Positions 1,979-7,670 of a stretch of DNA of 64,000 nucleotides are shown piece by piece. The stretch is from positions 17,874-81,873 of the IMG/VR virus record IMGVR_UViG_3300006927_000001, one strand, 5' to 3'. The notes under the pieces are model-generated. The model was not told the DNA's origin. It ran no database searches and saw nothing but the letters and a program-made list of their open reading frames with translations. The stretch is from a virus. A program made the position numbers and the translations under genes. How positions within the stretch are numbered: the first letter of the stretch is position 1; every line of letters begins with the position of its first letter.

Positions 1979-2595
1979 TTAGTAATTGCCTCAACTAATG
2001 CTTCAGTTGTTTCAGGTAAAGGCATGATTTTCAGAACAGTATTATCATTTAACAAAACGAGAATTCGAGAATAGCCAACTCCAGATGCGGCGTCGAGGGC
2101 TGGCTTTAGGTCTAAAGGGACTGTACCTGTTCCTGTTTTTGGAGTTGAATCAGTTATTCTAAGTTCAATTGACCCGATTTCAGATCGTGCTGCAGGAACA
2201 TGTGGTGAAACAGGACTATCAGCAATCACAACAGCTTTGGTTACTTTAAATTCAGGTGGAGGAGGTCTTGCTCCGAGAACCGTTAAATTATAATATTTCT
2301 TTTCTTTTCTGCCTTCATCTCCCATTTTAAATATTAACAGCATCTGAACTTCGTATTCTCCTGGTGCTGCCCAGATAGCGAATGTATTTCCATTATCATA
2401 TTCACGTCCACGTGCTCTCGGTCCCTGTGAAATGTTAATAATTTGCCAATCAATCATGAACAACGTGAATCCGTCAGGTTCTTCATATTGTACAGTAAAT
2501 TCAATTGGTTCATGTTGTTCAAACGTGAAAATTTGTGGAGTTTCTGCTTTCACTGTATCTAAGAAAATAAGCGTCAAAAATAACAAAGTAGACAT
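1975..2595 (-). CDS. secreted or membrane hypothetical protein
   Basis: N-terminal signal-like segment and PPPP linker; translationally coupled to the peptidase. Confidence 0.6.
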   Translation of the reverse strand: MSTLLFLTLIFLDTVKAETPQIFTFEQHEPIEFTVQYEEPDGFTLFMIDWQIINISQGPRARGREYDNGNTFAIWAAPGEYEVQMLLIFKMGDEGRKEKKYYNLTVLGARPPPPEFKVTKAVVIADSPVSPHVPAARSEIGSIELRITDSTPKTGTGTVPLDLKPALDAASGVGYSRILVLLNDNTVLKIMPLPETTEALVEAITK

Positions 2596-2656
2596 AATTT
2601 TTTCCTGTGCGGGTTGTTTGAGCGTGTCAATGATTCAAGATCGTTGAATTTTAAAT

Positions 2657-2689
2657 CCTTGCAGCGATCTTGTCGAGATCGCTGCAAAC
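2657..2689. repeat. 33-bp palindrome, copy 1
   Basis: ccttgcagcgatct-tgtcg-agatcgctgcaa(ac); the centre is in reverse orientation relative to copies 2 and 4. Confidence 0.95.
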
Positions 2690-2703
2690 TGAGAATTATC
2701 CCG

Positions 2704-2714
2704 TATATTATACG
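2704..2714 (-). promoter_or_regulatory. putative promoter -10 element CGTATAATATA
   Basis: The same 11-mer occurs twice in the 46.4-46.5 kb divergent region. Here it lies between palindromes 1 and 2, upstream of the leftward operon. Confidence 0.55.
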
Positions 2715-2734
2715 TGATTCGACCCAAAATAATT

Positions 2735-2767
2735 CCTTGCAGCGATCTCGACAAGATCGCTGCAAGG
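2735..2767. repeat. 33-bp palindrome, copy 2
   Basis: ccttgcagcgatct-cgaca-agatcgctgcaagg. Confidence 0.95.
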
Positions 2768-2852
2768 ATGCTGATTTAGGTAATTTCAGACTTCAAATCA
2801 AACCCAGCAACCCAGAATGAAGTTTTAAAGTTGAGAAAGTCTACGAAAACAG

Positions 2853-2877
2853 CCCACTTCTCATTTGAGGAGTGGGA
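2853..2877. terminator. hairpin, possible terminator
   Basis: cccacttctca-tt-tgaggagtggg, flanked by A-rich sequence on the left. Confidence 0.45.
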
Positions 2878-2904
2878 CTTGTTGAAAGATTCAAGATCAA
2901 AGGT

Positions 2905-3062
2905 TCATGGGCGGTAGTTTGATAAGAATGTAATTGAAATAAGGATCATGGGCGGTGGGTTGATTTAAATGTAATTGAAATAAGAATCATGGGCGGTGGT
3001 TTGATAAGAATGTAATTAAAATAATAAATAAGAATCATGGGCGGTGGTTTGATTTAAATGTA
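2905..3062. repeat. four tandem repeats of about 41 bp
   Basis: tcatgggcggt starts at 2905, 2946, 2987 and 3035, with alternating gataagaatgta / gatttaaatgta variants. Confidence 0.95.
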
Positions 3063-3213
3063 CAGCCTTAGAAAAAATTGACCGTATCAGACCCTACAGA
3101 GCGACAGGGGTACCCTAGTTTACCTATTCGCCCTATTTTACCTATTTGACCCACCCCGCCTAGGTAGCCTGGCCCACCTATCTTGACCAGACTACCTAGC
3201 TTGCCTAGCTTAC

Positions 3214-3720
3214 TTACTTCTCCCAGACAGCCAGCGTTGCCCAAACTATGTCCTTTACCACGGCGTACTCAACTTGCCCAAACTGACTAGCCACCTCAGA
3301 CAGCGTAGCTTCTAGATTCTCCGGAGTTAACCTACTTGGCCCAACTACCGTAGCTTGCCTAGTCCACGCAGGTTCCCCATCTTCTGTAACCAACTCAGCT
3401 TGCTCAGCTTGCTCAGCTAATGCAGCCTTCGCAAATACCTCATTGTCTTCAAGCTGTGCATTCAACCTATATACCGCACATTCCCAAAGTTCCCTAGCTT
3501 GCTTAACCCTATAAAACATCCCATACCCCTCAGCAAACCTAGCCATCCTATTTTGCAATTCTTGCTTATAGAACTCAGCTTCCCTAGCCAGCCTAGTCGT
3601 CACATCTAACCTATTCATTGTAAACCTCCTATTGTACGTGATTACCGGATACTGTGGAGACTTCGCAGCCAATCTAGATACCGCATCCTGCACATCTTGC
3701 CAGCATACTTCAGTCATCAT
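3214..3720 (-). CDS. hypothetical protein with atypical composition
   Basis: 168-aa ORF with GGGAG RBS before the ATG; followed by a hairpin at about 3160-3199. Confidence 0.65.
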   Translation of the reverse strand: MMTEVCWQDVQDAVSRLAAKSPQYPVITYNRRFTMNRLDVTTRLAREAEFYKQELQNRMARFAEGYGMFYRVKQARELWECAVYRLNAQLEDNEVFAKAALAEQAEQAELVTEDGEPAWTRQATVVGPSRLTPENLEATLSEVASQFGQVEYAVVKDIVWATLAVWEK

Positions 3721-3743
3721 AAACTCCCTATCTTACCAAACGA

Positions 3744-3782
3744 AAAACCCCCCTGGCCAGGGGACACCTGACCAGGGGGGGG
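3744..3782 (-). terminator. intrinsic terminator
   Basis: On the minus strand: ccccctggtcagg-tgtcc-cctggccaggggg followed by ttttt, just downstream of the 3796 gene. Confidence 0.75.
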
Positions 3783-3795
3783 TACGTAGACACCC

Positions 3796-5052
3796 CTACT
3801 TGGAGGGGGCTTCTTCCGCGACTCCATCAGTCGAGGGGGTAAAACTGAGAGGGGTTTTGTGCCCCAGTTCGTTGAAGAAGGCGAAATCGTTGGCGATAAT
3901 TGCCGTAAGGCAATCACCCAAAGAGACTTGCACATCCCCCAAAAGGAGGGTCCAGTTCTCCATGTTCTTCCGATCGATAACGGGCGGCTTGTAGCCCGAA
4001 ATCAGGTTTTTGATGACAGCTTCCACCTGATCGGGGGATGCCGGTTTATCTTGCTTCTCCCCCAAAATGGGAACGTATCGTGCTGGAACTTTGCCGTCTT
4101 TTGTCCGACCAAGTAGAACTTGAGCAGTTTCCTTGTCCAGCTTACCGGCAGGAATCCCCCCGTTTGGGGAATACAACATTTTTCCGCCGTCATCAGTGGC
4201 CACCTTGATCTTGATGCGATCAAAAATCTTGAGTCCCCCATTGGCGGGGATACTCGCGACCATCGCCCAACGGTGATACTTTTGGCGATTGCCACGATTG
4301 GCCTGCGTCATCTTGCCGGAAATCGGATCGAAGCGATCAGATAGACCCAATTGTCTACCTAGGTCAAGTTCGGTGATTCCCGGTTGTTCAGCCAAAAAGA
4401 TGATGGCGTTGCGAAGTAACCCGCAAGGCGAGTAACCCGCTTTGCTGTTTTGGGCGTTTTCGTCCGCCAACATCTTGTGAGTGACAGCAATTGACGTGAA
4501 TTCACGCCTTGTGGCATAGAATTCATACTCGCGAGGGGCGTCAATGTGCCCCCTCAATTGGGCTAGCACGACCGTTCCGGGTGCGGCATAATTCCGACGT
4601 TGCCCGCACAAGGCGAAGTCCGTGGGCTTGATCCCTTTGACCGATTCCAGCGAATCCGCCAATTGATCGTAAGTAATGGTTTCCGAATCCCCCGATTCCC
4701 CTTTTGGGAAATTCAAGGTTTTCTCACCCAATTCGCGAAATTCCGCAATCCGTTCTTCACGTTGCAGCATTGCAACCGCGACCGGATCTTCAGCAATTGC
4801 CGCGAACAGATCACAGGGGTTCTCCTCGTTCAAAGCCGCAAACAGCTTCGAGATTTCGTTAACGGTGTACGTTATGATCGTTCCTTTGCTCATATCGTAC
4901 CCATTGGCCATGTCAGGCGGGATTTGACCCAACGGACTTGACCAGGAATCCGAATCGTCGCGTCCAGGATTGTATGCCGGGGATTTAGTCTCGACATTCC
5001 AAAACGCCCACAATTGACCGATTGATACGGTCTGCACTTTCATTTTTGACAT
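3796..5052 (-). CDS. divergent ParB-family protein
   Basis: ALCGQRR (GxRR box), LADENAQ (EN box), then HTH-like PGITELDLGRQLG. Likely start MSKMKV at 5052. GC-richer than its surroundings. Confidence 0.55.
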   Translation of the reverse strand: MSKMKVQTVSIGQLWAFWNVETKSPAYNPGRDDSDSWSSPLGQIPPDMANGYDMSKGTIITYTVNEISKLFAALNEENPCDLFAAIAEDPVAVAMLQREERIAEFRELGEKTLNFPKGESGDSETITYDQLADSLESVKGIKPTDFALCGQRRNYAAPGTVVLAQLRGHIDAPREYEFYATRREFTSIAVTHKMLADENAQNSKAGYSPCGLLRNAIIFLAEQPGITELDLGRQLGLSDRFDPISGKMTQANRGNRQKYHRWAMVASIPANGGLKIFDRIKIKVATDDGGKMLYSPNGGIPAGKLDKETAQVLLGRTKDGKVPARYVPILGEKQDKPASPDQVEAVIKNLISGYKPPVIDRKNMENWTLLLGDVQVSLGDCLTAIIANDFAFFNELGHKTPLSFTPSTDGVAEEAPSK

Positions 5053-5084
5053 GATTCTACTTTCATTAGTGAGGTTTGAACTGT

Positions 5085-5421
5085 GCCAGCATAGGCAAGA
5101 TAGGCCGATTTGAGTCATTCTGTGCATACACAACCAAATGCACCAAGTTTGCGATTTTTTGGTTGCGTACACTTCGGACAATATTTGATTCTATCTTCAG
5201 CGTGTATTCCATCATTCAAGTATCGTAGCAAGTCTATTCCGACTGTACCGAATTGTTTTTTTGCGTGTTCGTCAGTGGTCAAACTTTCCACGATTCCAAA
5301 CAAAAACGCAGAATTAAATTCATTGAGATTCTGTATCCTCTGTTTGAATGCTGCTAGTTGGGTTAGTGTTTCCTGTCTTGACATGATTCTTTCCTATCTA
5401 GCCTATCTTGCCTATGCTGGC
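5085..5421. repeat. perfect 21-bp inverted repeat pair (5085-5105 / 5401-5421) enclosing the 89-aa gene
   Basis: gccagcataggcaagataggc and gcctatcttgcctatgctggc. Confidence 0.95.
5115..5384 (-). CDS. hypothetical protein with C-terminal Cys cluster (CPKC...CVC)
   Basis: 89-aa ORF with AGGAAAG RBS. Confidence 0.65.
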   Translation of the reverse strand: MSRQETLTQLAAFKQRIQNLNEFNSAFLFGIVESLTTDEHAKKQFGTVGIDLLRYLNDGIHAEDRIKYCPKCTQPKNRKLGAFGCVCTE

Positions 5422-5455
5422 GTACCCCCCCACATAGGGGGGTACACTGGTTGCA

Positions 5456-5614
5456 GGAACCAAGCAACCATGGCTAGATTTAGACGCCCACGTGAATACC
5501 GCCCTAGACTGGTTTAACGTCGCCCGATAAGCCTCAAGAGTGACTAGTATACTCAATCGGTTTGAATTCAAAGGCCGTTTAACGAGTCTATGCTAGCCAT
5601 GGCTGCTTGGTTCC
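5456..5614. repeat. 22-bp inverted repeat pair (5456-5477 / 5593-5614) with an inner stem; candidate structured ncRNA
   Basis: ggaaccaagcaaccatggctag vs ctagccatggctgcttggttcc (1 mismatch). The inner arms are tagactggtttaacg / cgtttaacgagtcta. Confidence 0.85.
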
Positions 5615-5617
5615 CTA

Positions 5618-5797
5618 TTCTGAGTCCCTCAGTCGTCGTTTGCCAGTGTTGAAGTCTAGTTGGTTAGAAATCTACTGTGTAGCGTGAAAACGTGCTATAC
5701 GGCCAGTGTGAGGACGTATAACAGCAAGATTGCCATTGCTGCGAGTAGTTTCATGTTTCACCTATCTTTCCGCAAACGACGACTGAGGGACTCAGAA
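5618..5797. repeat. perfect 26-bp inverted repeat pair (5618-5643 / 5772-5797)
   Basis: ttctgagtccctcagtcgtcgtttgc and gcaaacgacgactgagggactcagaa. Confidence 0.95.
5695..5754 (-). CDS. 19-aa hydrophobic peptide MKLLAAMAILLLYVLTLAV
   Basis: Manual translation; AGGTGA RBS just upstream of the ATG. It is below the ORF-track length cutoff. Confidence 0.55.
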   Translation of the reverse strand: MKLLAAMAILLLYVLTLAV

Positions 5798-6250
5798 GAT
5801 AGTACGCTATCAGCGGGTACAGTTTTTATACAGTCTCGGTACGATTGACGACTGCCAGCACGTATGCCGGACTTTAAGTTGTGAGTCTGTTTTGCATTAG
5901 CCTTGCGATTCCTAGTTGGTGATTGTTGCGTCCCTCTACCTATACAGAAATGAGGAAAGGAATAGGGGGACTGCAAAAATCGTCGTAAGTCGTTGCTATC
6001 AAAGGACTTAGGTGCCAGGCGTAAATAAGCATTTTAGTGTACAACTGTTCAGAACACAAAATTTTCATTTTGTTGCAAATATCGACGCAAAGTCTTTGAC
6101 TGTAAGGCTTTAAAATTACTTTTTTTCCTGCAGGCTGTACCATACTTTCAAGGGAGCAGCAATTCCGCACATCCCTCCTGCTAGGTAGTTATAAGGACGA
6201 TATTCGTGAATCAAACGTCCCCACCCGGTCGAGGGGTGCCAGGTTTCCCG

Positions 6251-6324
6251 CAATTACTTGTATTTGCTACAATTACTTGTATTTGCTACAATTACTTGTA
6301 TTTGCTACAATTACTTGTATTTGC
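6251..6324. repeat. 19-bp tandem repeat, about 4 copies (iteron-like)
   Basis: (caattacttgtatttgcta) repeated about 3.9 times, exact. Confidence 0.95.
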
Positions 6325-6344
6325 GAGAGATTCACTTTGATATG

Positions 6345-6425
6345 CCAGCGACCAGGTGGCATATCATTTTGAATCAAGCAGCTACCCACCCGAATAGGGG
6401 GGTAATTACCAGCGACCAGGTGGCA
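6345..6425. repeat. 17-bp direct repeat pair
   Basis: ccagcgaccaggtggca at 6345-6361 and 6409-6425. Confidence 0.9.
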
Positions 6426-6611
6426 ATTCAAAAAACTTTTTATACATTAACAGTAAACTTGATAATCCTCAAGCTGAACCAAGCTCAAACAGCCATGATT
6501 CTAGATCCACAGGTGTTTTGGCCATGAAACAGGGTCGGTGGGTTGGTAGAAATAAACATTCAGATTCAAACTCACTTGACCACTTTGTGATTTGATCTCG
6601 GCCGTCCTATA

Positions 6612-6631
6612 AAACCCCCGCCCATGATCCT
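6612..6631 (-). repeat. inverted partial copy of the 41-bp repeat core
   Basis: The reverse complement aggatcatgggcgggggttt matches aggatcatgggcggtgggtt at 2942. Confidence 0.8.
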
Positions 6632-6795
6632 GAATTATTATGTATTTGACCAAGTGAAAATATACAGATCCTAATAACTAGGTAAATCACAAACCTTGCA
6701 GCACAGAAACATGATTTAGGATACTTATCATCCCAGATCACACAGATCATGGTTGATAGGTTTGAATTAGTTCAACAGATCACCTAAAACACAAT

Positions 6796-6828
6796 CCTTG
6801 CAGCGATCTCGTCGAGATCGCTGCAAGG
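6796..6828. repeat. 33-bp palindrome, copy 3
   Basis: ccttgcagcgatctcg-t-cgagatcgctgcaagg (perfect arms). Confidence 0.95.
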
Positions 6829-7050
6829 AACTTTTCTACCTACAAAAGACACCTATATGCTTTAATATATGTCTGTTTTCACCTTTTTATTTTTTCTGAT
6901 AAACAGTTTACCTCCCAAAAGTAAGTTAGAAAGTTAGTCTTTTATTTTCATATCTCACTTTTTTAAGAAGTTTGCAGCATGAAACCACGATCCATGAACC
7001 ATATTCACGAATATAAGTTGAAAAAGTAACCGTTTCAGCCTTAAAAAATT

Positions 7051-7083
7051 CCTTGCAGCGATCTCGACAAGATCGCTGCAAGG
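7051..7083. repeat. 33-bp palindrome, copy 4
   Basis: Identical to copy 2. Confidence 0.95.
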
Positions 7084-7208
7084 TTCCAGAATAACGTGAT
7101 TTAGCATCCAAGACCAATGGATTCTAACCAAATGGCCTATTATAAAATGGCCTATGAACAAAATCCATCTTATTCATAGACCAAGCAAAAACATAAATGG
7201 ATCTTGAA

Positions 7209-7670
7209 TCACTCTTTATATGTTGTTTGCACACCAGCACCAGGCATAGAAGCACCTGCACCCTTTTCAACTGCACCTACCACCTTGTCTGTAGTAGCCT
7301 TGTCAGCAGCCTTGTCAGCAGCTGCTTTTGTCAGCTGCTGCTTTTTGTCAGCTGCTGCTTTGACTGCAAGTTTGGATTCCACCGTCTGGCCTGGAGCAGG
7401 AGTCGCATTTTCTGCAGCAGCCTTAGAAGGCGATCGACGTTTCAGCCATGATGCCAAATCCTCACCATCAGCCATGAACTCGGTTGCTTCAACATCTCCG
7501 GTGGTTTTTGTTAAAACTTCACCACCCTTACCAAGGAACGTGGACCTTTCCATTGAGTACGTGCCAAACGTACCATCAAGAAACCGAAACACCAAGCCAG
7601 CTAATGCATCTCCACTTAAATTACCAGCCAATGAACGAATTTTTTCCAAAACTTCTTCAGGTTGCGTCAT
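7209..7670 (-). CDS. hypothetical protein with Ala/Lys-rich (KAAADK) tail
   Basis: 153-aa ORF with AAGGA RBS. Confidence 0.7.
   Translation of the reverse strand: MTQPEEVLEKIRSLAGNLSGDALAGLVFRFLDGTFGTYSMERSTFLGKGGEVLTKTTGDVEATEFMADGEDLASWLKRRSPSKAAAENATPAPGQTVESKLAVKAAADKKQQLTKAAADKAADKATTDKVVGAVEKGAGASMPGAGVQTTYKE

What the first reader, a model, noticed from the sequence alone, without database searches (positions are those of the whole stretch)
5085..5811. Back-to-back long inverted repeats, each enclosing its own small gene or RNA module
Seen, reading the minus transcript: hairpin 5811-5798; perfect 26-bp IR (5797-5772 / 5643-5618) around a 19-aa ORF; 22-bp IR (5614-5593 / 5477-5456) around a structured segment with no clear ORF; hairpin 5446-5422; perfect 21-bp IR (5421-5401 / 5105-5085) around an 89-aa ORF. 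The linkers are only 0-9 nt, so about 730 nt is completely tiled. Each pair has a different sequence, which argues against a single invertase site. Established: long stems bracket 16S/23S rRNA, and T7 early mRNAs are cut at hairpins by RNase III. Inference: a precursor transcript is cut into end-paired or circularised mini-mRNAs and an sRNA, or ssDNA folds during entry. I know of no described system with this gene-in-a-loop tiling.
Basis: partly seen in the sequence, partly recalled or inferred. Interest (0 to 1): 0.85.

Follow-up and report, generated by a model that had tools for sequence, protein, structure and literature searches.

The report
Tiled gene-enclosing inverted repeats in phage
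In an uncultured 82-kb marine phage, three neighbouring units (a tiny membrane-type peptide gene, a non-coding stretch and a small zinc-ribbon gene) each sit between their own perfectly matching flanks. On the messenger RNA these flanks most likely pair into long stems that let the units be cut out, but this could not be tested here.

Summary
Three private inverted repeats (26/26, 21/22 and 21/21 bp; loops 128, 115 and 295 nt) plus two hairpins tile 5085-5811 with 0-9 nt linkers. They are far beyond chance and stand collinear in independent marine metagenome runs.

All arms lie between coding stretches on the sense (minus) strand. The 5' arms end 16-17 nt before the two start codons. The only imperfect pair is G.U on the sense RNA.

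DNA-level rivals got no support. The phage has no serine or tyrosine recombinase, and no inverted form was seen. No target-site duplications flank units A and B. No further arm copies turned up in this genome or in the collections I scanned.

My best reading (0.45) is that long-range RNA helices enclose each unit at the head of an operon that ends at a strong terminator. These helices would be substrates of a host double-strand RNase (RNase III).

What is missing: no relatives' DNA could be fetched, so covariation of the stems is untested. No RNA run was listed. The loop interiors are not unusually folded.

This scan has noted the same layout in other phages, by other agents (unchecked AI notes). 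My limited paper searches listed no description of it for phage mRNAs.

The parts
5823..5848 (-). Candidate promoter-like stretch (TCAA-N12-TGTATAAAAA) about 7 nt upstream of hairpin 1, with a twin at 6437-6462. Not established.
   Evidence: Direct repeat D2. The pattern search finds only these two copies, which is the number expected by chance for that loose pattern. The sigma-70 scan did not list it.
5798..5811 (-). Hairpin 1: 5-bp stem, 4-nt loop, abutting unit A.
   Evidence: -2.4 kcal/mol. Strain variants 5800 T>C plus 5809 A>G keep the pair; 5807 C>T loosens the top pair. A 4-bp stem is kept.
5772..5797 (-). Unit A, 5' arm (26 nt). Ends 17 nt before the ATG of the 19-aa ORF.
   Evidence: I1, 26/26. 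Mean pair probability 0.987.
5695..5754 (-). 19-aa very hydrophobic ORF with an AGGTGA ribosome-binding site. Resembles a type I toxin; unproven.
   Evidence: hydropathy 2.35; the site region 5765-5760 is mostly paired, P unpaired 0.23. Codon score -0.12 bits per codon, uninformative at this length.
5618..5643 (-). Unit A, 3' arm. Starts 51 nt after the stop codon.
   Evidence: I1.
5593..5614 (-). Unit B, 5' arm (22 nt).
   Evidence: I3, 21/22. The odd pair is G.U on the minus-strand RNA and C.A on the plus strand (read).
5478..5592 (-). Unit B interior, 115 nt, no credible ORF. Candidate non-coding RNA.
   Evidence: the only ORF is a TTG-started 57-aa frame that runs through the arms, and it scores -0.34 bits per codon. 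Fold z -0.13. No Rfam match.
5456..5477 (-). Unit B, 3' arm.
   Evidence: I3.
5422..5446 (-). Hairpin 2: 10-bp G+C stem, no T run after it, abutting unit C. A similar copy lies at 6383-6404.
   Evidence: D4; -19.0 kcal/mol. One run shows a one-letter length variant in the homopolymer at 5425.
5401..5421 (-). Unit C, 5' arm (21 nt). Ends 16 nt before the ATG of the 89-aa ORF.
   Evidence: I2, 21/21. Pair probability 0.998.
5115..5384 (-). 89-aa ORF with a C-terminal CxxC...CxC motif. No homologues found.
   Evidence: Only itself in 5.8 billion proteins. No Pfam or PHROG match. Atlas gave nothing usable. Frame 0 is the best of three but weak (0.10 bits per codon, against 0.33 +/- 0.11 for phage core genes).
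5085..5105 (-). Unit C, 3' arm. Starts 9 nt after the stop codon and ends 32 nt before the ATG of the 418-aa gene.
   Evidence: I2.
3796..5052 (-). 418-aa gene of an uncharacterised, metagenome-only family: the large gene of the same putative operon. Its start region shares 13 identical bases with that of the 89-aa ORF.
   Evidence: 30 proteins at E<=0.001. No Pfam or PDB match by sequence. ParB_N matches three other genes of the phage but not this one. D6.
3748..3780 (-). Strong terminator-like hairpin (14 pairs, 11 G-C, then TTTTTCGTTT) just after the 418-aa gene: the likely operon end.
6795..7083 (-). Two copies of a 33-35-bp palindrome, each followed by a T-rich tract on the minus strand. 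They look like terminators upstream of the unit. Two more copies lie at 2655-2769.

Best explanation
The three repeats are long-range helices in a minus-strand transcript. It starts somewhere between the upstream terminator-like palindromes (6795-7083) and 5812. It runs through hairpin 1, unit A, unit B, hairpin 2, unit C and the 418-aa gene, and ends at the terminator at 3780-3748.

Each helix (21-26 bp) closes one unit: ribosome-binding site, ORF and stop codon for A and C, and a non-coding RNA for B. Perfect duplexes of this length are the natural substrate of the host's double-strand RNase, RNase III. Cutting would release a 19-aa-peptide mRNA, a roughly 160-nt RNA and an 89-aa-protein mRNA, and would separate them from the 418-aa mRNA. 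Each product would keep its two ends paired, as pre-16S and pre-23S rRNA do.

Shown: the repeats, their tiling, their placement relative to the ORFs, and their presence in independent samples. Inferred: transcription, pairing in vivo, cutting, and any effect on stability or translation.
For: (1) The repeats are real, private and far beyond chance, and they are confined to this one region. Five of the genome's 6 long-range inverted repeats lie in 2655-7083.

(2) Geometry on the sense strand. All arms lie outside the ORFs. The 5' arms end 17 nt (A) and 16 nt (C) before the ATG, leaving the ribosome-binding sites free of the arm. The 3' arm of C starts 9 nt after the stop codon and ends 32 nt before the next ATG.

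(3) The only imperfect pair in 69 is G.U on the minus-strand RNA and C.A on the plus strand. This is worth about 2:1, not more.

(4) In a modelled 5816-5030 RNA the arm pairs have mean probability 0.987, 0.995 and 0.998.

(5) Loops of 115-295 nt are too long for cruciforms in double-stranded DNA (established knowledge). The pairing can therefore matter only in RNA or in single-stranded DNA.

(6) DNA-level rivals were tested and got no support. No Resolvase or Phage_integrase match. No strand-changing joint in the contigs of 4 runs. No target-site duplication at A or B. The arms are unique in the genome even at 5 mismatches or fewer. They are absent from IMG/VR. The I1 arm is absent from GTDB genomes.

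(7) Operon frame: terminator-like palindromes upstream and a strong terminator right after the 418-aa gene.

(8) Precedent. B. subtilis RNase III cuts long-range intramolecular duplexes, 73 sites on 45 mRNAs (PMC11780869, passages). RNase III cuts mRNAs at the inverted repeats of Correia elements (PMC10969869, passages).

(9) Lead only, not support: other agents of this scan report the same layout with compensating changes in other phages.
Against: There is no evidence of transcription: 0 of 20 listed runs are on record as RNA, which says nothing either way.

There is no covariation test. No relative's DNA could be obtained, and the four laid runs show no variation at all inside 5085-5797.

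The stems are almost perfectly Watson-Crick: 68 of 69 pairs, with one G.U. Old RNA helices usually carry more wobble pairs, so the arms may be young or made by a DNA-level copying event.

The plus strand folds nearly as well (z -11.6 against -13.6).

The loop interiors are not unusually structured.

The hairpin-1 variant 5807 C>T is G.U on the plus strand but C.A on the minus strand.

No convincing promoter was found. No boxA-like site lies near the units.

The host is unknown, so whether it has RNase III is unknown. The phage itself has none.

The layout occurs only here, not throughout the genome's operons.
Confidence: 0.45

Rival explanations
1. DNA-level cassettes: each unit is a small mobile or swappable element bounded by terminal inverted repeats. 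It could be MITE-like, or like the ultra-small mobile elements of mycobacteriophages. The units would have landed next to one another in a non-coding hot spot of a horizontally acquired island, and any RNA pairing would be a by-product.
For: The sizes (180, 159, 337 bp) and the 21-26-bp perfect terminal repeats fit the MITE definition quoted in PMC11602168 (passages).

MITEs can cluster and insert into one another, and their repeats can be RNase III sites (PMC10969869, passages).

Near-perfect Watson-Crick arms suggest a recent DNA-level origin.

The region is a compositional island: about 50% G+C at 3000-6000 against 40% for the genome. The island genes have atypical codon scores, and composition is mixed between units: the 89-aa ORF has GC3 0.33 and the 418-aa gene 0.58.

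Thirteen identical bases stand at the starts of the 89-aa ORF and the 418-aa gene (D6).
Against: No target-site duplication at A or B, and only 2 bp (GT) at C, which has a chance of 1 in 16.

Each arm pair is single-copy in the genome at 5 mismatches or fewer.

There were 0 exact matches for all three arms in IMG/VR. The 20-mer of I1 had 0 matches in 185,579 species genomes. It had one match in JGI metagenomes, in an unrelated contig with no partner arm there and no other similarity.

Units A and C carry ORFs with their own ribosome-binding sites, whereas MITEs are non-coding by definition.

No transposase, Resolvase or integrase was detected.

MITEs are rare in viruses: 0.2% of 5170 viruses analysed (PMC11602168, passage).
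Confidence: 0.15
2. Unit A alone is the functional core: a type I toxin-like mRNA kept inert by pairing of its 5' and 3' ends, as in hok mRNA fold-back inhibition. Units B and C would be unrelated neighbours.
For: The 19-aa peptide is extremely hydrophobic (2.35) and has a good AGGTGA site.

That site region is mostly paired in the model (P unpaired 0.23, against 0.63 for the 89-aa ORF's site). Its partner is a stretch just after the stop codon.

The ends of the unit pair over 26 bp.
Against: This does not explain why B (no ORF) and C (a soluble-looking zinc-ribbon ORF) have the same closing stems.

No antisense promoter was found by the scan. No Rfam toxin or antitoxin family matched. Unit B shows no significant complementarity to A (z 0.72).

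The inside of A is not significantly folded (z -1.26).

The peptide is too short for the family tools. The hok fold-back comparison is recalled, not from a call.
Confidence: 0.1
3. The repeats act in DNA. Either they are hairpins in single-stranded DNA (replication origin, priming site, packaging or entry), or they are paired binding sites for a protein of the island.
For: The surrounding 4.4 kb is dense in DNA-type signals. There are 4 x 19-bp tandem repeats at 6244-6338 (D1). About four direct repeats of roughly 41 bp lie at 2905-3062 (read). Four copies of a 33-35-bp palindrome are present.

The fold is about equally good on both strands. The arms are almost purely Watson-Crick.

Two arms hold small internal palindromes: CTGAG-TCC-CTCAG in I1 and AGCCATGGCT in I3 (read).
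Against: Loops of 115-295 nt rule out cruciform extrusion in duplex DNA (established knowledge).

The three arm pairs share no sequence, so one protein cannot read them all.

The arms are placed with respect to start and stop codons, which a DNA-level role does not predict.

The 418-aa protein has no recognisable DNA-binding or ParB domain.
Confidence: 0.1
4. Invertible segments (invertons): each repeat pair is a recombination site and the enclosed segment flips.
For: Arm lengths and spacings are in the range I recall for invertons. Three adjacent switches would give combinatorial states.
Against: No serine or tyrosine recombinase is in the phage.

Only the reference orientation appears in the contigs of 4 of 4 runs, and no strand-changing joint is listed. 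Contigs drop rare variants, so low-frequency flipping is not excluded.

Three unrelated arm sequences would need three specificities.

Flipping units A or C would put their ORFs on the antisense strand of the operon.
Confidence: 0.04

Closest known systems
Leader-trailer processing helices around 16S and 23S rRNA in bacterial rrn operons, cut by RNase III (recalled; not from a call)
   Same: A long helix forms between the sequences just before and just after a functional unit. Several such units stand in a row on one precursor. The helices are long enough for RNase III. The products keep paired ends.
   Different: Here the enclosed units are a 19-aa ORF, a non-coding stretch and an 89-aa ORF, not rRNAs. 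No boxA-like signal lies near them. The stems are perfect and short (21-26 bp). No processing is shown.
Long-range intramolecular RNase III targets in B. subtilis mRNAs (PMC11780869; abstract and passages read; its supplementary tables not seen)
   Same: mRNA segments hundreds of nucleotides apart pair into duplexes, and RNase III cuts them on both strands.
   Different: Those are scattered single duplexes in cellular mRNAs, mapped by experiment. Here three abutting duplexes each enclose a whole unit in a phage, and they are predicted only.
RNase III processing of phage T7 early polycistronic mRNA (recalled; not from a call)
   Same: A phage operon transcript is cut between cistrons by host RNase III into separate, stabilised messages.
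   Different: T7 sites are local hairpins between genes. Here the two strands of each helix lie on either side of a gene, so the gene sits in the loop.
Correia / NEMIS repeats of Neisseria (MITEs whose terminal inverted repeats are cut by RNase III in mRNAs; PMC10969869, passages)
   Same: They are co-transcribed with genes, and the repeats form RNase III substrates.
   Different: Correia elements are multi-copy (>120 per genome), non-coding, and (recalled) flanked by a TA duplication. Here every arm pair is single-copy and private, two units encode proteins, and A and B have no duplication.
5'-3' end pairing within single bacterial mRNAs. S. aureus icaR: PMC3868564, search listing and start of abstract only. 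B. subtilis hbs: seen only as a reference entry in PMC11780869. hok fold-back inhibition: recalled.
   Same: The two ends of one message pair, which controls translation or decay. The hok case concerns a small hydrophobic toxin, like the 19-aa ORF here.
   Different: In those cases the pairing is shorter and imperfect, it involves the ribosome-binding site itself, and it occurs once per message. Here the arms spare the site and are tiled in threes.
Ultra-small mobile elements of mycobacteriophages (MPME; recalled, not from a call)
   Same: A phage-borne unit of a few hundred bp with terminal inverted repeats and one small ORF, like unit C.
   Different: As I recall, MPMEs recur in many phages with about 11-bp repeats. 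Unit C is unique, and its ORF has no homologue.

Membership tests
RNase III long-range processing helices (rRNA-type or mRNA-type) | Uninterrupted duplex of about 20 bp or more, formed by the transcribed strand | tested here: met
   26, 22 (one G.U) and 21 bp, pair probabilities 0.99-1.00 in silico. The sense strand is inferred from gene orientation.
RNase III long-range processing helices (rRNA-type or mRNA-type) | Pairing kept by compensating changes in relatives | not testable with these tools
The four laid runs show no variation in the arms.
RNase III long-range processing helices (rRNA-type or mRNA-type) | Transcript ends or cleavage within the helix | not testable with these tools
   No RNA run was listed. 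Only contigs were laid.
MITE | Terminal inverted repeats of at least 10-15 bp and a size of 50-800 bp | tested here: met
   Definition from PMC11602168.
MITE | Target-site duplication of 2-10 bp | tested here: not met
   None at A or B. A 2-bp GT at C is within chance (read).
MITE | Several copies in a genome or in related genomes | tested here: not met
   Arms are single-copy at 5 mismatches or fewer. There were 0 hits in IMG/VR for 3 of 3 arms. I1 had 0 hits in GTDB genomes and one chance hit in JGI metagenomes. I2 and I3 were not searched in cellular genomes or metagenomes.
MITE | Non-coding interior | tested here: not met
   Units A and C hold ORFs with ribosome-binding sites. Unit B is non-coding.
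Inverton (invertible DNA switch) | A site-specific recombinase is present | tested here: not met
   PF00239 and PF00589: 0 matches in the complete phage record. A host enzyme is not excluded.
Inverton (invertible DNA switch) | Both orientations present in sequence data | tested here: inconclusive
   Only the reference orientation appears in the contigs of 4 runs. Contigs drop rare variants, and no raw reads were available.
Type I toxin-antitoxin | Small hydrophobic peptide with a membrane-spanning stretch | tested here: met
   19 aa, mean hydropathy 2.35.
Type I toxin-antitoxin | Antisense or nearby complementary antitoxin RNA | tested here: not met
   No plus-strand promoter-like site in 5600-5800. 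Unit B is not complementary to A beyond chance. No Rfam family matched.
Retron non-coding RNA | Reverse transcriptase next to an RNA whose ends are inverted repeats | tested here: not met
   RVT_1: 0 matches in the genome.
Bacterial Y RNA (YrlA-type) | Ro60 (TROVE) partner gene and a match to the Rfam model | tested here: not met
   TROVE: 0 matches. No Y RNA family among the Rfam matches up to E=5.
ParB family (for the 418-aa gene, as another first-stage note proposed) | ParB_N domain | tested here: not met
   PF02195 matches three other genes of the phage but not 3796-5052. No Pfam family matched 21 of 21 family members convincingly.

The most novel reading that the evidence does not exclude
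Phages use portable, end-clamped RNA cassettes. Each private long-range helix defines a unit that is cut out of an operon transcript by the host double-strand RNase. At the DNA level the same unit can be swapped whole between phages.

In this marine phage the cassettes carry a toxin-like 19-aa membrane peptide, a roughly 160-nt non-coding RNA and an orphan zinc-ribbon protein. They stand at the head of a horizontally acquired, terminator-insulated island. This would be a general, undescribed layer of phage gene organisation.
Probability: 0.3. Interest if true: 0.75.

Novelty: new variant of a known kind. Interest (0 to 1): 0.55.

Why it matters
If the stems act in RNA, a phage is using the ribosomal-RNA trick on protein-coding messages and a small RNA. 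That trick is to loop each product out with a long helix and let a double-strand RNase release it. It would give a simple, sequence-readable rule for how some phage operons are divided into separately stable messages. It would also flag tiny genes (here 19 aa) that gene callers miss. The three units are short and self-contained, so the idea is directly testable in vitro and with end-mapping RNA-seq.

Tried and rejected
Relatives. The following found no relative's DNA:
- blastn of 4000-7000 against 50,697 phage records;
- tblastn of the 418-aa protein and of the DNA polymerase;
- The search for related loci with the 418-aa, 89-aa and 206-aa proteins and with alignments A1 and A3.

The 418-aa family has 30 remote members as proteins only. 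The 89-aa ORF has none.

Expression: no RNA holder was listed.

Known RNA families: Rfam gave 0 matches at gathering score. At E up to 5 it gave only six weak matches, none of which reaches its family's gathering score. No tRNA or tmRNA was found.

Rejected readings:
- Retron.
- Y RNA.
- Phage-encoded RNase III.
- RNA circularisation by a phage ligase.
- boxA-type antitermination signal near the units (motif recalled).
- Unit B as an antisense partner of neighbouring start regions (z 0.72, -0.39, 0.02, -1.61).
- ParB identity of the 418-aa gene.

The candidate promoter motif TCAA-N12-TGTATAAAAA occurs only at the two places it was derived from. A first try used the wrong spacing and gave four chance matches.

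The high-depth 39-nt stretch 5975-6013 could not be identified.

Supplementary files of papers were not opened.
Full report
WHAT IS THERE. The window is bases 17874-81873 of an 81,873-bp IMG/VR virus record with a 123-bp terminal direct repeat. It has 40% G+C, and 20 public runs hold it, labelled marine, seawater or hydrothermal-vent metagenome. Genes around the finding all run on the minus strand.

Reading that strand from 5811 down to 5085:
- Hairpin 1 (5811-5798; 5-bp stem).
- Unit A: arms 5797-5772 and 5643-5618, 26 of 26 paired, with a 128-nt loop.
- 3 nt of linker.
- Unit B: arms 5614-5593 and 5477-5456, 21 of 22 paired, with a 115-nt loop.
- 9 nt of linker.
- Hairpin 2 (5446-5422; 10-bp G+C stem, -19 kcal/mol).
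- Unit C: arms 5421-5401 and 5105-5085, 21 of 21 paired, with a 295-nt loop.

Unit A holds a 19-aa ORF (5754-5695, MKLLAAMAILLLYVLTLAV, hydropathy 2.35) behind an AGGTGA site. Unit B has no credible ORF. Unit C holds an 89-aa ORF (5384-5115) with a C-terminal CxxC...CxC motif.

IS IT MORE THAN CHANCE. Yes.
- An exact scan of the whole genome finds 10 inverted repeats, against 0-2 in 10 shuffles.
- A scan that allows mismatches finds 6 long-range pairs. Five of them lie in 2655-7083 and three are the units. Nine of 10 shuffles gave none and one gave one.
- The 781-nt stretch folds with z -13.6 on the minus strand and -11.6 on the plus strand.
- All of this excess lies in the arms. The loop interiors alone give z -1.26, -0.13 and -1.81. 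Unit B is therefore not a notably 'structured segment'.
- The arms are private. They share no sequence with each other and have no other copy in the genome at 5 mismatches or fewer.

IS IT AN ARTEFACT. No. I laid Logan contigs of four runs from four studies (2017-2021) on 2500-7300. All four cover the region. One 2431-nt contig spans 3850-6280 collinearly with four differences.

No strand-changing joint is listed. Contigs drop rare variants, so this excludes only a dominant inverted form.

Inside 5085-5797 no difference is listed in any of the four runs. Diversity is too low (about 7 single-letter variants in 4.8 kb) for that to mean anything.

Three of the four differences of the long contig fall in the 14-nt hairpin 1. 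The changes 5800 T>C and 5809 A>G turn a T:A pair into C:G. The change 5807 C>T loosens the top pair. Both forms keep at least a 4-bp stem. Such clustered changes in a small palindrome can also arise in one template-switch event, so I count this as weak evidence for selection on pairing.

SURROUNDINGS. The units lie in a 4.4-kb island (about 2655-7083) that differs from the rest of the phage.
- G+C is about 50% at 3000-6000, against 40% overall.
- Island genes score 0.03-0.10 bits per codon on the phage's own codon table, against 0.33 +/- 0.11 for 27 long phage ORFs.
- Four copies of a 33-35-bp palindrome bound the island, each followed by a T-rich tract on the minus strand. They look like terminators.
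- Between the right-hand pair (6795-7083) and hairpin 1 lies about 1 kb without credible ORFs. It holds four 19-bp tandem repeats (6244-6338), further hairpins, and a 26-nt stretch (5848-5823) that has a twin at 6462-6437 and could be a promoter. That last point is unproven.
- After unit C comes a 418-aa gene (5052-3796), followed at once by a strong terminator-like hairpin (3780-3748, 14 pairs, then TTTTTCGTTT).

The simplest operon is therefore: hairpin 1, A, B, hairpin 2, C, 418-aa gene, terminator.

The 418-aa protein belongs to a rare family known only from metagenomes (30 proteins at E<=0.001). It has no Pfam or PDB match by sequence. The ParB_N model matches three other genes of this phage but not this one.

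The 89-aa ORF has no homologue among 5.8 billion proteins.

The phage has no match among 50,697 cultured-phage records, even with its DNA polymerase.

HOW IT MOST LIKELY WORKS. Loops of 115-295 nt cannot extrude as cruciforms from duplex DNA (established knowledge). The pairing can therefore only matter in RNA or in single-stranded DNA, or else the arms are recombination or transposition ends.

The placement of the arms speaks for RNA on the sense strand.
- All six arms and both hairpins avoid the ORFs.
- The 5' arms end 17 nt (A) and 16 nt (C) before the ATG, so the ribosome-binding site sits just inside the loop.
- The 3' arm of C begins 9 nt after the stop codon and ends 32 nt before the next ATG.
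- The only imperfect pair of 69 is G.U on the minus-strand RNA and C.A on the plus strand. For a single transition that is a 2:1 hint, no more.
- In a modelled 5816-5030 RNA the arm pairs have probabilities of 0.99-1.00.

Perfect duplexes of 21-26 bp are the classical substrate of RNase III. I therefore commit, at 0.45, to this reading: the operon transcript folds into three abutting long-range helices, and the host enzyme cuts them. The cuts release a peptide mRNA, a roughly 160-nt RNA and a small-protein mRNA with paired ends, and free the 418-aa message.

Precedents that I read:
- B. subtilis RNase III cuts long-range intramolecular duplexes, 73 sites on 45 mRNAs (PMC11780869; abstract and passages).
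- Neisseria RNase III cuts mRNAs at the inverted repeats of Correia elements (PMC10969869; passages).

The rRNA leader-trailer helices and T7 early-mRNA processing are recalled, not from a call.

AGAINST THIS READING.
- Nothing shows transcription or cutting.
- Covariation is untested.
- The stems are almost purely Watson-Crick, which fits a young or DNA-made repeat better than an old RNA helix.
- The plus strand folds nearly as well.
- The hairpin-1 variant at 5807 would be a G.U pair on the plus strand but a mismatch on the minus strand.
- No clear promoter and no boxA-like site were found.
- The phage has no RNase III of its own, and the host is unknown.
- The layout is confined to this island.

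RIVALS.

(a) Mobile or swappable DNA cassettes (0.15). Sizes and terminal repeats fit the MITE definition (PMC11602168, passages), and the island looks foreign and mixed in composition. Against this:
- No target-site duplication at A or B, and only 2 bp at C.
- No second copy in the genome.
- 0 exact matches for 3 of 3 arms in IMG/VR.
- 0 matches for the I1 20-mer in 185,579 species genomes.
- One match in JGI metagenomes, which is a chance hit. It lies in an unrelated A+T-rich contig, the contig has no other similarity to the phage, and it has no partner arm.
- Two units carry ORFs.

(b) A type I toxin-like module for unit A only (0.10). The peptide fits. Its ribosome-binding region is mostly paired in the model (P unpaired 0.23, against 0.63 for the 89-aa ORF). 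Against this, no antisense promoter, no antitoxin RNA and no known family were found. It also leaves B and C unexplained. It is compatible with the main reading as the cargo of one cassette.

(c) A DNA-level role in single-stranded DNA or in protein binding (0.10). The neighbourhood is rich in tandem repeats and palindromes. Against this, the three arm pairs are unrelated in sequence, and they are set by codon positions.

(d) Invertons (0.04). There is no Resolvase or Phage_integrase match in a complete genome, and no inverted form in the contigs of four runs.

Also rejected: retron (no reverse transcriptase), Y RNA (no TROVE protein; no Rfam match), and circular RNAs made by a phage ligase.

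COMPARISON WITH WHAT IS KNOWN. The layout works like the processing helices of rRNA operons and like the long-range RNase III targets of B. subtilis mRNAs. It differs in that whole small genes and a non-coding unit are enclosed, one after another, on a phage message.

It is not a member of the MITE class: three of the four defining features I tested were not met.

Three paper searches (listings and abstract starts only) listed no description of tiled gene-enclosing helices in phage mRNAs. I cannot claim more than that.

EARLIER NOTES OF THIS SCAN. Other agents' notes, which are unchecked AI notes and so leads rather than support, report the same 'gene in a loop' layout in many other uncultured phages. 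Several notes say that relatives keep the pairing through compensating changes. The scan has therefore found this before on other DNA.

These notes raised my prior for the RNA reading. I could test none of their claims. The one exception is a lead that such cassettes can be preceded by boxA, which is not the case here.

VERDICT. This is a real, non-random and reproducible feature. It is most likely a set of RNA helices that delimit expression units at the head of an acquired operon. It is a new variant of a known kind (RNase III-type long-range processing helices). Interest is 0.55: the anatomy is striking and directly testable, but in this window every functional step is inferred.

Noticed in passing
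window 5975-6013: This 39-nt stretch lies 160 nt upstream of hairpin 1. Summed contig depth there is 27-50 in three runs, against 5-10 for the flanks, and many contigs diverge on both sides. In three runs a contig carries two copies of the stretch, about 60 nt start to start with 31 other letters between them.

The stretch is single-copy in this phage. Exact 21-26-mers of it are absent from IMG/VR and from GTDB genomes.

It may be a conserved regulatory or repeat element shared with other marine genomes. A solitary CRISPR-repeat-like unit was considered but is not shown.
   Followed up: partly
window 2655-2769 and 6795-7083: Four copies of a 33-35-bp palindrome (arms TCCTTGCAGCGATCT), each followed by a T-rich tract on the minus strand. 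They bracket a 4.4-kb island that is richer in G+C and atypical in codon use. They look like reused terminators that insulate an acquired module.
   Followed up: partly
window 6244-6338: Four head-to-tail 19-bp repeats (TTTGCTACAATTACTTGTA). On the plus strand they give overlapping TTGCTA-17-TACAAT promoter-like sites with a TG extension. They could be iterons, operators or a stacked divergent promoter.
   Followed up: no
window 2905-3062: About four direct repeats of roughly 41 bp (core ACCACCGCCCATGAT) in the non-coding gap upstream of the 206-aa gene at 1975-2595. A first-stage note calls that gene the small terminase subunit. PHROGs gave no match for it.
   Followed up: no
window 5046-5058 and 5378-5390: The start regions of the 89-aa ORF and the 418-aa gene share 13 identical bases (AGAATCATGTCAA on the minus strand, D6). 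The motif GATAGG precedes the starts of the 19-aa, 89-aa and 168-aa ORFs.
   Followed up: no
window 3796-5052: The 418-aa protein belongs to an uncharacterised family known only from metagenomes (30 proteins; invariant RR at 152-153, N199, Q257, R279, Y294). It has no Pfam or PDB match by sequence. ParB_N matches three other genes of the phage but not this one.
   Followed up: partly
window 6329-6375 and 6345-6430: An imperfect 19-bp-stem hairpin (I4) and two copies of a 22-nt direct repeat (D3, 6345-6366 and 6409-6430) flank a copy of the G+C hairpin (6383-6404), downstream of the second promoter-like stretch. This may be a second small structured transcription unit.
   Followed up: no
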